A stretch of DNA of 64,000 bases from a virus (taxonomy: Duplodnaviria; Caudoviricetes). This document shows, one piece after another, positions 1,389-9,927 of the stretch. The stretch is taken from positions 4,671 to 68,670 of the IMG/VR virus record IMGVR_UViG_3300048895_000267. One strand, given 5' to 3'. The first letter of the stretch is position 1; each line of letters starts with the position of its first letter. The translations under genes and the position numbers were made by a program. The notes under the pieces are model-generated. The model ran no database searches, was not told the origin of the DNA, and was given only the letters and a program-made list of their open reading frames with translations.

Positions 1389-1420
1389 ACCGCACCCTCT
1401 TCGGAGGGTGCGGTTTCTTT
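1389..1420 (+). terminator. Intrinsic terminator
   Basis: ACCGCACCCTC-TTCG-GAGGGTGCGGT stem with UUCG loop, then TTCTTT. Confidence 0.85.
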
Positions 1421-1453: not shown

Positions 1454-2233
1454 ATGGGCAAGCTGCATGAAATCCTTGCGGTCGAAAAGACCGTCGAAGA
1501 AGCCAGCAACAAGATCATTTCCGAGACCAACGCCAAGTTCGGCAAGGTCGACGCCTACTTCGCCGGCGGCATCAAGACGCTGGAGCTGCTCGAAGAAGGC
1601 CTCGCCAACAAGGCCATCGAAGCCGCGGCCGAGCAGAAGGCCGAACTGGTCACCACCGTGCACGAGACGCTCGACTACGCCCTGAACTACTGGGCCAACG
1701 CCGAAGACGTGAAGTTCCAGAAGGACTCCACGAACCAGCGCGCGATCGCCGACATCGTCGTCGATGGCGAAGTGCTCGCCAAGGACGTGCCGGTCGACAC
1801 CCTGCTCGGCCTCGAGGCTCGGCTGGTCACGCTGCGCAATACGTTCTCGCTGATGCCCACGCTCAACGCGGCGGTCGAGTGGGTACCGGCTGACGTCGGC
1901 GGCCTGCGCGGCGCCGTGCGCGCCAAGGACCCGATGGTCCAGACCAAGACCGAGAAGACCGTCGGCGCCGTCGTGCTCTACGATGCCACCGACAAGCACC
2001 CGGCCCAGCTGGAGAAAGTCACCAACGACAAGGTCGTGGGCACGTTCACCACCGTGCGCTTCTCCGGCGCGGCCAGCACGATGCAGAAGGCCGAAGTGAT
2101 CGCGCGCACCGACAAGCTGCTCGTGGCCGTCAAGCAGGCGCGCATGCGTGCCAACTCCGTCGAAGCCAACGACGGCAAGCTCGGCGCCGACATCAAGAAC
2201 TTCCTGCTTGCGCCGTTCAGCACCACGCACTAA
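1454..2233 (+). CDS. Conserved hypothetical protein, DUF7873-like (259 aa)
   Basis: GGGG RBS; biased codons; motifs KLHEILAVEK, ADIVVDG..LAKDVPV..LL.LE, ATDKHPAQ, TTVRFSGA, QARMRAN resemble the family as I recall it (not searched). Confidence 0.75.
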   Translation: MGKLHEILAVEKTVEEASNKIISETNAKFGKVDAYFAGGIKTLELLEEGLANKAIEAAAEQKAELVTTVHETLDYALNYWANAEDVKFQKDSTNQRAIADIVVDGEVLAKDVPVDTLLGLEARLVTLRNTFSLMPTLNAAVEWVPADVGGLRGAVRAKDPMVQTKTEKTVGAVVLYDATDKHPAQLEKVTNDKVVGTFTTVRFSGAASTMQKAEVIARTDKLLVAVKQARMRANSVEANDGKLGADIKNFLLAPFSTTH

Positions 2234-2403
2234 GCTTCGCATTGCTGCACCAGCACAGCTATCGGCTCACCGTTGAAAGAATACGGACAAGGCGGCCCGA
2301 CTGACAAAAGGCTGGTGCAGCTTCACTTCACGGGGGGACCCGGGAGTAAGTCCTCGCAGCTCACGCTGCCAGCCTACTGCTCCCGGGAACCTCCACCAGT
2401 TTC

Positions 2404-2518
2404 GAAGTCGGGAAGGTGGGCTTAAAAACAGCCATCCTTTAAAGAGTGGAGAAGACCCCTCACCAGAACATCGGAAGGATTAACGTCAATCCTTTAGCGT
2501 CACAGCACACCTGACTTC
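2404..2518 (+). ncRNA. Mimic of the 23S rRNA H43/H44 (L11-binding, GTPase-associated centre) with a 49-nt insert
   Basis: 2414-2448 matches E. coli 23S 1057-1091 at 28/35 and 2498-2510 matches 1092-1104 at 10/13 (E. coli sequence from memory); two compensatory changes. Confidence 0.8.
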
Positions 2519-2674
2519 GGATTCACTTCAAGGCATCCGTTATCGTTATCGTCAACGTTATGTCCCGAACCTCTATCGAAGAGGGGAAGGCGTCTCGTCC
2601 TCGTATCGCCTTGACACGTTCATCGTAATACCACGCAACAAGTACCGAGAGAGTCTCCGGCAGTAGCCGGGAAA

Positions 2675-2771
2675 CCCGTGCATCGGTGGTTCGAATCCAT
2701 CCGGCCCAGCCAAAGCGCTCTTATCCAAGAGTTCTTCGGTGGGCCGTAGCCAAGTGGTCTAAGGTAGCGGG
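2675..2771 (+). tRNA. Circularly permuted tRNA(Gln)-like domain: 3' half 2675-2712 precedes 5' half 2740-2771; no anticodon loop
   Basis: Acceptor TGGGCCG/CGGCCCA 7/7 plus G-CCA; T arm GGTGG-TTCGAAT-CCATC; D arm GCC-AAGTGGTCTAA-GGT; anticodon stem GCGGG/CCCGT. Confidence 0.8.
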
Positions 2772-3070
2772 TACCTTCTTTATCGTCCCTACTCTCGTCG
2801 GACACGACTTGCGTTGATATCCAGCTCTTAAGTGAGCACCGGACTATTAATCCGATCGATATGGAGGCCCGAGGGGCAGCGGCGAAGCCGCCCCTCGGGT
2901 ACCTCTTTCAAGCGCATTGACTCAGTGCTCTTGAACGAGGTACCACCATTCCTAAGCGGTAGGCAGCGCAGCCGAGCGCAAGTGGTTCACGGGGCATAGT
3001 GAGTAGGGCCGCCGTTCGACACGGCATCCCGCCATATCGGAAGCCACCGCTTTTTTCTTCGGAGCATCTC

Positions 3071-3436
3071 ATGTACCACAACGGCCAAGTCGTGCACAAC
3101 CTGCGCACCGGCGAACCTTGCCTCGTCAGCGACGAGGACGAAGACAGCCTGTTCGTATGGAAACAAAACGACGACACGGTGCACTACATCGAGCGCAATC
3201 CGAAGTACGACGACATGCCGAAGCCACCAAGCTACGCCACTGGCTTCCCACCGTCCGTGCAGATCAACGGCCATGAGTACCGCTACGCTGACTACCGTCG
3301 CGAGCAGGAATACTCCATCGCCACGCCGAAGACAGTCGAAGAAGCCGTACGCCTACTCGCTGACGGCCTGATCCAACCTGCCCCCCTGTCCCCCGAATAC
3401 CTTGCCCGGAGAAAAAAGCATGAACACGCAACGTGA
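3071..3436 (+). CDS. Hypothetical protein
   Basis: Start moved to ATG 3071 behind GGAG at 3061. Confidence 0.7.
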   Translation: MYHNGQVVHNLRTGEPCLVSDEDEDSLFVWKQNDDTVHYIERNPKYDDMPKPPSYATGFPPSVQINGHEYRYADYRREQEYSIATPKTVEEAVRLLADGLIQPAPLSPEYLARRKKHEHAT

Positions 3437-9130: not shown

Positions 9131-9670
9131 CAGCACCTAGGTCATGGTGCATGACCTGCTAGCGCCGAAGCTGGCGAAGTTGCCGCTGACATCACCCGCG
9201 TGGCACCGGCGATACGGTGCACTACCTGCAGAGGATGGCTACGTTCCTTTCCAAGGCATCGGAATTAAAATACGTAGCCGGCTGGCTAGAAGCCGAAGCA
9301 CTGCGCCGCAACCGTAAATGCTTTCAGTCGAAAAATAAGAGACGTGACGAATCTCGCTAGCACAAGCGCTGGGTTGGGGCCGTCCCACGTGTTCCTTCGG
9401 GAGCAAGAAATCCGGTCCTAGGGTATGAGATTGTCCTGAGTTAAAACGGCTCTAGCCTTACCGCGTCACCCTGATCAGGTGCCAACCGAGCAAACCTCAA
9501 AGCAAACATCCGCGTTGTCCCGGCGATACGGGGCGCTTCTAGCGCAGCACCCTTGGTGCAACGACAACGCGTAAGTACCTGCTCTTGGCTACACCATTCA
9601 GGGCGAAAAACGCGGTCTGCGGAATGTGTAGAAGCCCGCCGGACTAGGCGAGGGTGCTGCGCTAGAAGCG
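9131..9670 (+). ncRNA. Candidate structured intergenic RNA or regulatory leader
   Basis: About 550 nt without a credible ORF; many hairpins; perfect 20-bp inverted repeat 9534-9553/9651-9670. Confidence 0.55.
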
Positions 9671-9678
9671 AGGAAAAT

Positions 9679-9927
9679 ATGGACTACACTCCCAAGATTC
9701 CAAAAACTGAGCTCCGCCACGGCGCGTACTACACAGGGCACTGCCGCAACGCAACTCTTGCACGCTGGCACGGTCCTGAGCAGCAGTTTTATCACTGGCG
9801 GTCAAAGTTCGGCATGCGCTTCATCGAAACAATTCGCGCCCCCGAGGACGAGCAGCAATACGACGTATTCGTCGCAGAACACGAGACCATGAATACCGAA
9901 ACCATCCCCTTCCCTGAGGAGGAATAA
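9679..9927 (+). CDS. Hypothetical phage protein (82 aa)
   Basis: Start moved to ATG 9679 behind GAGG; motif GAYY.G.CRNAT.ARW. Confidence 0.75.
   Translation: MDYTPKIPKTELRHGAYYTGHCRNATLARWHGPEQQFYHWRSKFGMRFIETIRAPEDEQQYDVFVAEHETMNTETIPFPEEE

What the first reader, a model, noticed from the sequence alone, without database searches (positions are those of the whole stretch)
1454..3056. Candidate new protein + large ncRNA system: DUF7873-like gene followed by an ~820-nt RNA assembled from translation-apparatus mimics
Seen: a terminator (1389-1420) isolates a 259-aa gene that runs straight into ~820 nt with no credible ORF, in an otherwise gene-dense genome. The interval is tiled by long helices and ends in a helix plus T run at 3051-3056. 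It holds a 23S GTPase-centre mimic, a permuted tRNA, an orphan D+anticodon arm and a T-loop hairpin, separated by pyrimidine-rich linkers. Established: the H43/44 centre together with tRNA elbows and CCA ends is what EF-Tu/EF-G, L10/L11, RelA-type enzymes, thiopeptides and many anti-phage ribonucleases recognise. Inference: protein and RNA may form one RNP, acting as a decoy or scaffold that titrates translation-surveillance or defence factors. I know of no description of this combination.
Basis: partly seen in the sequence, partly recalled or inferred. Interest (0 to 1): 0.92.

Follow-up and report, generated by a model that had tools for sequence, protein, structure and literature searches.

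The report
Three phage mimic RNAs beside DUF7873
Behind a phage gene of unknown function lies an 837-base gene-free stretch that is not one purpose-built RNA but a row of separate folded RNA modules: a copy of the ribosome's uL11/GTPase site, an anticodon-less tRNA look-alike, and a small near-invariant motif. Each recurs on its own in unrelated phages, and I found none of them described.

Summary
Window 1454-2233 encodes a DUF7873 protein. Positions 2234-3070 have no credible ORF and fold far better than shuffles (z -5.9).

The interval breaks into self-closed domains:
- **M1 (2244-2321).** Its 48-nt core is 90% or more identical in 50 cultured phages, mostly inside tRNA arrays.
- **Hairpin (2332-2394).**
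- **GAC mimic (2401-2521).** It copies 23S rRNA H43/H44 (26/30 identical, z 7.8) and belongs to a family found in at least 79 viral contigs.
- **DUF7873-associated RNA (2531-2814).** It has a YATCGT hexamer track and a circularly permuted, tRNA(Gln)-like domain with a 7-bp acceptor stem and GCCA.
- **3' domain (2852-3039), then a U run.** This domain is unverified.

Only the tRNA-mimic RNA is genetically tied to DUF7873: 36/37 viral loci and 54/70 metagenome loci carry it. None of 117 other DUF7873 loci has a GAC mimic or M1 nearby.

The "one RNP built from translation mimics" reading is therefore only partly supported. This looks like a unique juxtaposition, probably co-transcribed, in a phage with no tRNA genes. 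The "orphan D/anticodon arm" and "T-loop hairpin" could not be substantiated.

This scan has noted the DUF7873 RNA and the GAC mimic many times on other DNA. M1 is new to it. Function remains inferred.

The parts
1389..1420 (+). Terminator-like hairpin (11 bp, 8 G-C) plus T-rich tail. It closes the upstream gene (474-1379).
   Evidence: sequence
1454..2233 (+). DUF7873 protein gene (259 aa). Function is unknown. The AlphaFold model is confident, mixed helical and beta, and the protein is mildly acidic.
   Evidence: Pfam PF25283 at 1e-67. AF2 mean pLDDT 92.9. No fold or sequence match to solved structures. pI 5.5, family median 6.3.
2244..2321 (+). M1, an unnamed stem-closed RNA motif. P1 pairs 2244-2254 with 2311-2321 (11 bp). 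The near-invariant 48-nt core is 2255-2302 and contains an inner 6-bp helix with one bulge and a 4-bp hairpin.
   Evidence: The core is 90-98% identical in 50 INPHARED phage records (Aeromonas, Enterobacter, Acinetobacter, Salmonella, Serratia, Pseudomonas). It is unannotated there and lies 2-25 nt from tRNA genes. It also occurs in 24 IMG/VR contigs and 2 Burkholderiaceae genomes. P1 differs in sequence in every lineage but always pairs. One inner pair covaries G-C, A-U, U-A, C-G and G-U. Covariance model R1 scores it 79.6 bits. No Rfam match at E<=10.
2332..2394 (+). Long imperfect hairpin (5 + 10 + 5 bp) between M1 and the GAC mimic. Role unknown.
   Evidence: MFE fold only. No relatives found.
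2401..2521 (+). Self-closed mimic of the 23S rRNA GTPase-associated centre. Its parts are: closing helix 2401-2412/2510-2521; H43-like hairpin and UUUAAAGA junction 2413-2445; 50-nt insert 2445-2494; H44-like hairpin 2495-2510.
   Evidence: 26/30 identity to E. coli 23S 1059-1088, z 7.8. The same split architecture occurs in 79 of 80 IMG/VR hits that are not rRNA genes: 5' half, AGU, variable insert of 28-339 nt, U(G/A)GCGUAAYAGCACAC, then a covarying closing helix. Soil 23S contigs overlap 2376-2448 and then read on as true rRNA.
2531..2632 (+). 5' domain of the DUF7873-associated RNA. It has an AAGGC/GCCUU closing helix and a period-6 hexamer track (GUUAUC GUUAUC GUCAAC GUUAUG), with further YAUCGU copies.
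   Evidence: It aligns in architecture with the region directly after the stop codon of 11 other DUF7873 genes. YATCGT lies at 2541, 2547, 2621 and 2781. The repeated pentamer changes with the protein lineage.
2633..2814 (+). Circularly permuted, anticodon-less tRNA(Gln)-like domain. Its parts are:
- outer helices 2633-2654/2791-2814
- variable-arm-like hairpin 2656-2671
- anticodon-stem equivalent 2674-2679/2767-2772
- T arm 2685-2701
- 3' acceptor strand 2702-2708, followed by GCCA 2709-2712
- 27-nt linker hairpin 2713-2739
- 5' acceptor strand 2740-2746
- D arm 2749-2765
   Evidence: Rfam beta_tmRNA partial hit. Acceptor pairs 7/7. 11 of 12 pairs show compensatory changes across 24 members. 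Closest to tRNA-Gln among 688 phage tRNAs. Outer helices come from the MFE fold only.
2815..2851 (+). Unverified.
   Evidence: Single-sequence resemblance only. The MFE fold prefers 2813-2819/2845-2851. No relatives found.
2852..3039 (+). 3' multi-hairpin domain closed by 2857-2864/3032-3039. It contains the 'T-loop hairpin' at 3011-3025. Family unknown.
   Evidence: MFE fold. No Rfam match above chance. No relatives found.
3040..3056 (+). Weak hairpin (GAAGC/GCUUU) followed by U6. This is the probable 3' end of the transcript.
   Evidence: Sequence and fold. Not called by the terminator scan.

Best explanation
The 837-nt interval is a head-to-tail array of separate, self-closed structured RNA domains, all on the strand of the DUF7873 gene. 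It is not a single RNA evolved as a unit.

Three of the domains belong to three independent phage RNA families:
1. **M1**, a tRNA-sized motif with a near-invariant 48-nt core.
2. **A free-standing copy of the 23S rRNA GTPase-associated centre** (the uL11 site).
3. **The DUF7873-associated RNA**, made of a hexamer track plus a permuted, anticodon-less tRNA(Gln) look-alike with a 7-bp acceptor stem and an encoded GCCA.

Elsewhere all three families sit in or beside phage tRNA arrays. Here, in a phage record with no tRNA gene at all, they are packed behind DUF7873.

Inferred steps:
- The gene and the array are transcribed together, since there is no terminator between them, and transcription ends at the U run at 3051-3056.
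- RNase P can cut 5' of U2740, as shown for M. smegmatis YrlA. That would leave a CCA-ended two-piece domain.
- DUF7873 acts with its own RNA, possibly by binding the lineage-specific hexamers. This would be a Ro60/Y-RNA-style particle.
- The GAC copy binds uL11, or a factor that reads that site, away from the ribosome.

All of these modules imitate or accompany parts of the translation apparatus. The likeliest common purpose is therefore to manipulate or shield host translation or tRNA surveillance during infection.
For: - **Domain boundaries and strong folding:**
- **M1 family:**
- **GAC identity and family:**
- **DUF7873-RNA linkage:** the module is present in 36/37 viral loci and 54/70 metagenome loci, and in cultured Ralstonia phage phiRSL1 (ORF270 plus a 484-nt gap holding two modules). 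Neighbouring proteins are not conserved. Covariation is shown, and the hexamer track.
- **Independence of the families:** 0/117 other DUF7873 loci hold a GAC mimic or M1.
- **Shared neighbourhoods:** DUF7873 genes sit inside tRNA arrays in L027, L028 and L044. GAC mimics abut tRNAs. A GAC mimic and DUF7873 lie 1-2 kb apart in L103 and L148.
- **No tRNA and no Ro60 in this virus:**
- **No plus-strand promoter or terminator call inside 1454-3040:**
Against: - There is no expression, processing or binding evidence of any kind.
- The adjacency of the three families is seen only in this genome, so co-function is not supported by conservation.
- DUF7873 proteins are neutral to mildly acidic and have no recognisable RNA-binding fold.
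- The window's H44-like loop reads GUCACA where the family and rRNA have GUAAYA, and position 1071 is A, not G. uL11 binding may therefore be weakened.
- GlnRS normally needs the anticodon, so aminoacylation is doubtful (established knowledge).
- About 40% of the interval (2332-2394 and 2815-3039) has no relatives, so its fold rests on one sequence.
Confidence: 0.6

Rival explanations
1. The whole ~830 nt is one functional RNA that, with DUF7873, forms a single RNP. The RNP displays a GAC copy next to a CCA-ended tRNA copy, as a decoy or scaffold for factors that read that combination on the ribosome (RelA-type enzymes, translational GTPases, defence nucleases).
For: - All domains lie on one strand with 6-12-nt linkers and no internal terminator or promoter call.
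- The virus has no tRNA genes whose processing would release the modules.
- A GAC mimic and DUF7873 also lie within 1-2 kb of each other in L103 and L148.
Against: - 0/117 other DUF7873 loci carry a GAC mimic or M1.
- Only 2/88 GAC loci carry DUF7873 in their flanks.
- Each module is closed by its own helix and occurs alone elsewhere.
Confidence: 0.15
2. The tRNA-like part is a two-piece (permuted) tmRNA, or a permuted tRNA gene that matures into an aminoacylated adaptor.
For: - Its best Rfam match is the permuted betaproteobacterial tmRNA.
- It has a 7-bp acceptor stem, a discriminator G and an encoded CCA.
Against: - It scores 28.9 bits against a gathering score of 84, and only model positions 86-150 of 331 align.
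- Positions 3 and 70 form G-C, not G-U, which is read directly from the sequence.
- ARAGORN, which models permuted tmRNA, finds none.
- There is no anticodon loop; the stem runs on into further helices.
- Many family members cap the acceptor stem without any CCA.
Confidence: 0.03
3. The interval is decaying debris: a pseudogenised tRNA array plus a captured rRNA scrap, without function.
For: - No canonical tRNA is left in the genome.
- A 12-nt direct repeat (11/12 identical) at 2322 and 2522 brackets the 200-nt hairpin + GAC block, as an insertion scar might. One such repeat is expected by chance in 900 nt.
Against: - The fold is much stronger than shuffles.
- All family-defining pairs are intact in M1, the GAC mimic and the tRNA domain.
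- The interval is identical in a second soil sample and in the parts of it covered by a third, while the DUF7873 coding region varies.
Confidence: 0.05
4. The structures are cis-acting untranslated regions: a 3' stabiliser of the DUF7873 mRNA and/or a leader controlling the gene at 3071.
For: - M1 begins 11 nt after the stop codon.
- In some phages M1 lies 25-70 nt upstream of an ORF.
Against: - The genes downstream of M1 are unrelated to one another: SSB, an exoribonuclease, an HTH protein and unknowns.
- Most M1 and GAC copies lie between tRNA genes with no ORF to control.
Confidence: 0.07

Closest known systems
YrlA-class bacterial/phage Y RNAs with Ro60 (Rsr); Rfam RF02553; Chen et al. 2014, PMC4201824
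   Same: Both are non-coding RNAs with a tRNA-like domain in the order T arm, loop-capped acceptor stem, D arm. In both, the anticodon side opens into the rest of the RNA, and the RNA is encoded next to a dedicated protein. The M. smegmatis form has a 7-bp acceptor stem, is cut by RNase P and receives CCA.
   Different: - No Ro60/TROVE gene occurs in the virus.
- The YrlA model gives no hit on the interval at E<=10.
- The partner gene is DUF7873, of unknown fold.
- A hexamer track replaces the Ro-binding helix.
- Many relatives carry two tRNA-like domains.
GTPase-associated centre of bacterial 23S rRNA (H42-H44, E. coli 1051-1108), the uL11/thiostrepton-binding domain
   Same: The H43 hairpin, its loop and the UUUAAAGA junction are 26/30 identical. 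U1060, A1067 and A1088 are kept. An H44-like hairpin and an H42-like closing helix are present.
   Different: - It stands alone (121 nt), outside any rRNA gene.
- A 50-nt insert follows A1088.
- The H44 loop reads GUCACA instead of GUAAUA.
- Position 1071 is A.
- Assignments of residue roles are from memory of the published structures.
Two-piece (permuted) tmRNA of Betaproteobacteria, Rfam RF01850
   Same: Gene order is T arm, 3' acceptor strand with CCA, short intervening loop, then 5' acceptor strand. It is the best Rfam match.
   Different: See the membership test. It is below threshold, has no G3:U70, has no tag reading frame detected, and lacks the pseudoknot ring.
Ribosomal-protein operon leaders that mimic rRNA binding sites (e.g. 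L10 leader, RF00557)
   Same: Both are RNAs outside the ribosome that reproduce an rRNA protein-binding site.
   Different: Those leaders are cis-regulatory elements of host r-protein operons. This one is phage-encoded, lies among tRNA-type RNAs, and has no r-protein gene downstream.
GOLLD and ROOL large phage RNAs (RF02032, RF03087)
   Same: They are large, ornate, phage-borne RNAs next to tRNA genes. A GOLLD copy lies 120 nt upstream of a GAC mimic in L066.
   Different: Neither family matches the window. The interval here is modular rather than one conserved fold.

Membership tests
Pfam DUF7873 (PF25283) | Profile match above the curated cut-off over the full length | tested here: met
   228.8 bits against a cut-off of 27, residues 1-252 of 259
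DUF7873-associated tRNA-mimic RNA (unnamed; seen repeatedly in this scan) | Lies downstream of a DUF7873 gene on the same strand, before the next ORF | tested here: met
   The T arm starts 452 nt after the stop codon. The distance is longer than the usual 50-300 nt because M1, a hairpin and the GAC mimic lie in between.
DUF7873-associated tRNA-mimic RNA (unnamed) | Permuted domain in the order T arm, 7-bp acceptor hairpin, D arm, with covarying stems | tested here: met
   Acceptor pairs 7/7. 11 of 12 pairs show compensatory changes and 0-1 are broken across 24 members including the window.
DUF7873-associated tRNA-mimic RNA (unnamed) | Repeated lineage-specific short motif flanking the domain | tested here: met
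   YATCGT occurs 4 times in 246 nt. The same motif is seen in the nearest protein relatives and other motifs in distant ones.
YrlA Y RNA (RF02553) with Ro60 | Match to the Rfam covariance model | tested here: not met
   No YrlA hit on 2150-3150 at E<=10
YrlA Y RNA (RF02553) with Ro60 | Ro60/TROVE protein encoded nearby | tested here: not met
   No PF05731 match in the 68.7-kb virus record; the controls were detected
YrlA Y RNA (RF02553) with Ro60 | Ro-binding helix with the GNCGAAN0-1G motif | not tested
   The motif is named in PMC4201824. I did not search for it here.
Two-piece tmRNA (RF01850) | Score at or above the gathering threshold over the whole model | tested here: not met
   28.9 bits against 84; only model positions 86-150 of 331 align
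Two-piece tmRNA (RF01850) | G3:U70 alanine identity pair | tested here: not met
   The acceptor pairs UGGGCCG with CGGCCCA, which gives G3-C70
Two-piece tmRNA (RF01850) | Tag reading frame recognised by a tmRNA finder | tested here: not met
   ARAGORN finds no tmRNA in the window
Canonical tRNA (RF00005) | Cloverleaf with an anticodon loop | tested here: not met
   No hit by ARAGORN or Rfam. The anticodon stem continues into helices.
Phage GAC-mimic RNA (unnamed; seen repeatedly in this scan) | H43 half, then AGU, a variable insert, an H44 half (U-R-GCGU-NNNN-GCACAC) and a closing helix complementary to the 5' flank | tested here: met
   The window shows a 50-nt insert, UAGCGUCACAGCACAC, and the 8-bp helix GAAGUCGG/CUGACUUC. 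The same layout occurs in 47 of 60 distinct sequences.
23S rRNA gene | Similarity that extends beyond the GAC domain | tested here: not met
   Only 30 nt align to E. coli rrn. A true rRNA hit (L137) aligns over 819 nt.
M1 motif (unnamed) | 48-nt core of fixed length inside a variable closing stem | tested here: met
   R1 scores it 79.6 bits. P1 is 11 bp.
GOLLD / ROOL | Rfam model match | tested here: not met
   No hit at gathering score or at E<=10

The most novel reading that the evidence does not exclude
In this tRNA-less phage the array works as one molecule. A DUF7873-bound RNA presents a copy of the ribosomal GTPase-associated centre beside a CCA-ended, uncharged-tRNA look-alike. It thereby imitates the surface that RelA-type alarmone synthetases or translation-sensing defence effectors read on a stalled ribosome, and traps them. 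M1, whose 48-nt core is almost invariant across phages of unrelated hosts, would then be a catalytic or ligand-binding element (for example a self-cleaving unit) that frees the RNA from the mRNA.
Probability: 0.1. Interest if true: 0.85.

Novelty: new variant of a known kind. Interest (0 to 1): 0.62.

Why it matters
Phages are known to carry tRNAs. This locus shows that they also carry, in the same genomic niche, folded RNAs that imitate other parts of the translation machinery. One imitates a ribosomal protein- and factor-binding site. Another is an anticodon-less tRNA paired with its own protein.

I found no paper on any of the three families. If they act as decoys or adaptors, they would be a new layer of phage control over host translation, the stringent response or tRNA-directed defence.

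This window is useful in two ways. It places all three families in one compact, probably co-transcribed unit. It also exposes M1, a rare and almost invariant motif whose conservation pattern is what one expects of a ribozyme, an aptamer or a precise mimic. Cultured phages that carry the DUF7873 RNA and M1 make the questions testable.

Tried and rejected
**Expression**
- No RNA holder was listed for the interval.
- Laying four soil DNA runs on the region gave no sequence variants inside 2234-3070, so no covariation could be drawn from close relatives.
- The metagenome search found no DUF7873 relative above 55% identity, so no close sister locus exists to test whether the composite is conserved.

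**DUF7873 function**
- The PDB profile search gave only noise.
- Foldseek against PDB and BFVD gave nothing at E<=0.001.
- The best VIA-align match is an uncharacterised C. diphtheriae protein (Z 9.9, rmsd 7.5), which is not informative.
- The protein atlas returned only DUF7873 clusters.
- PHROGs gave no hit.

**M1 identity**
- It has no significant similarity to E. coli 16S, 23S or 5S rRNA, rnpB, ssrA, ffs or ssrS.
- By eye it does not fit the HDV-like, hammerhead, twister or k-turn/box C/D layouts. These comparisons are from memory and are not tests.
- The riboswitch idea was dropped because the downstream genes are unrelated.
- An L1-stalk resemblance I suspected was not borne out by alignment.
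- Model R1 found no divergent copy in 100 sources.

**Other searches**
- blastn of the interval against E. coli genomes found nothing; the database is too large for 30-nt matches to score.
- The sarcin-ricin-loop resemblance at 2640-2684 is at chance level.
- Sub-regions 2321-2403 and 2776-3062 have no relatives in any locus fetched.
- Literature searches for DUF7873, permuted tRNA-like phage RNAs, phage GAC/rRNA mimics and tRNA-cluster motifs found no description.
- One pattern scan was wasted on a miscounted spacer.
- The 12-nt direct repeat around the GAC block is about what chance gives in 900 nt.
Full report
**Setting.** The window is nearly all of a 68.7-kb IMG/VR virus record, estimated 93% complete. 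The record was recovered from soil metagenomes. It has no tRNA gene and no Rfam family at gathering score. The ORF at 1454-2233 follows a terminator-like hairpin at 1389-1414 and is a full-length DUF7873 protein (Pfam 1e-67). From 2234 to the ATG at 3071 there are only short ORFs without Pfam matches. GC content falls from about 0.66 to 0.50-0.58. The strand folds much better than shuffles (z -5.9).

**Anatomy.** Folding the interval in three overlapping pieces gives a row of domains, each closed by its own helix and joined by 6-12-nt linkers:
- M1, 2244-2321
- a long hairpin, 2332-2394
- a domain closed by a 12-bp helix, 2401-2521
- a hexamer-rich domain, 2531-2632
- a tRNA-like domain inside long outer helices, 2633-2814
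- a small element, 2815-2851
- a multi-hairpin domain, 2852-3039
- a weak hairpin and U6, 3040-3056

**The tRNA look-alike and DUF7873.**
- With permissive thresholds, Rfam's only meaningful hit is the permuted betaproteobacterial tmRNA. It aligns the T arm, the 3' acceptor strand with CCA, a loop, and the 5' acceptor strand (28.9 bits, far below the gathering score of 84).
- The acceptor stem (UGGGCCG with CGGCCCA) has U1-A72, G3-C70 and discriminator G. It therefore lacks the alanine identity pair, and ARAGORN sees no tmRNA.
- I collected 37 viral loci that encode DUF7873 relatives. Downstream of 36 of them, on the same strand, lie one or two domains of the same permuted order with a perfectly paired 7-bp acceptor stem. 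Most are followed by NCCA.
- An independent set of metagenome loci gave 54 of 70 by the same strict rule.
- Cultured Ralstonia phage phiRSL1 has two such domains in the unannotated 484-nt gap after ORF270.
- Flanking protein genes are not shared, so the gene and the RNA travel as a pair.
- RNAalifold on 24 members, including the window, finds compensatory changes at 11 of 12 T-arm and acceptor pairs, with at most one broken cell.
- The window's halves resemble tRNA-Gln best among 688 phage tRNAs.
- Upstream of the domain, the window has the family's 5' architecture: a closing helix and a period-6 track of YAUCGU. That motif occurs four times in 246 nt against about 0.1 expected. The repeated motif changes with protein lineage. 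This is the only hint, and a weak one, that the protein reads it.
- The topology is that of YrlA Y RNAs, including the RNase P-cleaved, CCA-tailed M. smegmatis form (PMC4201824). However, the YrlA model does not hit and the virus has no Ro60.
- The DUF7873 model is confident (pLDDT 92.9), but no search gave a fold or function. The family is neutral to mildly acidic.

**The GAC copy.**
- Window 2416-2445 matches E. coli 23S 1059-1088 at 26 of 30 positions (z 7.8). No other segment of the interval resembles rRNA.
- A pattern for this stretch found 88 places in viral contigs. Of the 80 I checked against E. coli rrn, 79 are short copies, not rRNA genes.
- These copies share one design: the H43 half, then AGU, a variable insert, an H44 half, and a strand that pairs with the 5' flank. 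The paired sequences differ in almost every lineage.
- The window fits this design, with one of the shorter inserts (50 nt). It deviates in the H44 loop (GUCACA) and at position 1071.
- Most copies abut tRNA genes.
- Real soil 23S contigs overlap 2376-2448 in the read-laying and then continue as genuine rRNA. This shows exactly where the mimic departs from the original.

**M1.**
- blastn against cultured phages unexpectedly returned 50 records that match only 2255-2302, at 90-98% identity. They are Aeromonas, Enterobacter and Serratia T4-like phages and Acinetobacter, Salmonella and Pseudomonas phages. The element is always unannotated and usually lies a few bases from a tRNA gene.
- Twenty-four IMG/VR contigs and two Burkholderiaceae genomes also hold it.
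- The 48-nt core has a fixed length. An inner pair covaries through G-C, A-U, U-A, C-G and G-U. The closing stem is different in sequence but paired in every lineage.
- It is in no Rfam family. It resembles no E. coli stable RNA. It has no consistent downstream gene.
- I cannot name its function. Its conservation pattern is that of a ribozyme, an aptamer or a precise mimic.

**One system or three?** Neither the GAC copy nor M1 occurs within the fetched flanks of any of the other 117 DUF7873 loci. Only 2 of 88 GAC loci hold a DUF7873 gene, 1-2 kb away. The three families are therefore independent and share a habitat, the tRNA/ncRNA islands of phages. The window's tight juxtaposition is unique among what I sampled. 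It is probably co-transcribed, since no promoter or terminator is called between 1454 and 3040, but that is inference.

**Unverified parts.** The hairpin at 2332-2394, the 'orphan D/anticodon arm', the 'T-loop hairpin' and the 3' domain have no relatives. They rest on one sequence.

**Prior knowledge.** Notes of this scan record the DUF7873 RNA about 50 times and the phage GAC mimic about 63 times on other DNA. I reached both conclusions before reading those notes, and my tests agree with them. M1 was not on record. Literature searches found no description of any of the three families.

**Verdict.** This is a real and unusual locus: a compact array of three apparently undescribed, translation-related phage RNA families behind the partner gene of one of them. 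The anatomy is well supported. The mechanism (an RNP with DUF7873, uL11 or factor binding by the GAC copy, RNase P processing) is inferred.

Noticed in passing
window 2322-2333 and 2522-2533: A 12-nt direct repeat (TTCACTTCA-C/A-GG, 11/12 identical) lies directly after M1's closing stem and directly after the GAC mimic's closing stem. It brackets a 200-nt block, as an insertion scar would. About one such repeat is expected by chance in 900 nt.
   Followed up: partly
L239 (Ralstonia phage phiRSL1, AB366653.2) 1421-2702: ORF270 is a DUF7873 protein. The unannotated 484-nt gap after it holds a hexamer track and two permuted tRNA-like domains with 7/7 acceptor stems. This is a cultured phage suitable for experiments.
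   Followed up: partly
L066 1582-2047 and 2167-2192: A full GOLLD RNA (Rfam, 184.6 bits, with an embedded tRNA) lies about 120 nt upstream of a GAC mimic in the same tRNA island. L079 also holds both, 3.4 kb apart.
   Followed up: no
L103 2270-2543: Inside a tRNA array, a permuted tRNA-like domain (weak YrlA hit, 31.6 bits) sits 240 nt upstream of a GAC mimic. It is about 1.8 kb downstream of a DUF7873 gene fragment.
   Followed up: partly
L157 3735-3788 and L158 990-1043 (Burkholderiaceae MAG, Polynucleobacter): These are the only two bacterial genomes of about 185,000 species with the M1 core. Both copies have very long (about 19 bp) closing stems. Whether they lie in prophages was not checked.
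   Followed up: no
L007, L008, L015, L025 and L012, L014, L018, L022, L026 around the M1 core: In two groups of viral contigs, M1 is embedded in larger conserved flanks (GGGGAAAGCG...GCGAGUACCCC, and CAGUCCUCAGCCGUGUUGGU...). This suggests bigger RNAs that use M1 as a module.
   Followed up: no
L124 1597-1650: This is a compact GAC mimic without any insert. It scores 49.1 bits on the bacterial LSU model, just under the gathering score of 50, and sits between tRNA genes.
   Followed up: no
window 1633-1900: Soil runs X3 and X4 carry variants of the DUF7873 coding region (for example G1633A, G1636A, C1654T, G1870C). The parts of the non-coding interval that they cover are identical.
   Followed up: no
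window 9131-9681: First-reader notes flag a second hairpin-dense intergenic stretch and a perfect 20-bp inverted repeat at an RBS. I did not examine them.
   Followed up: no
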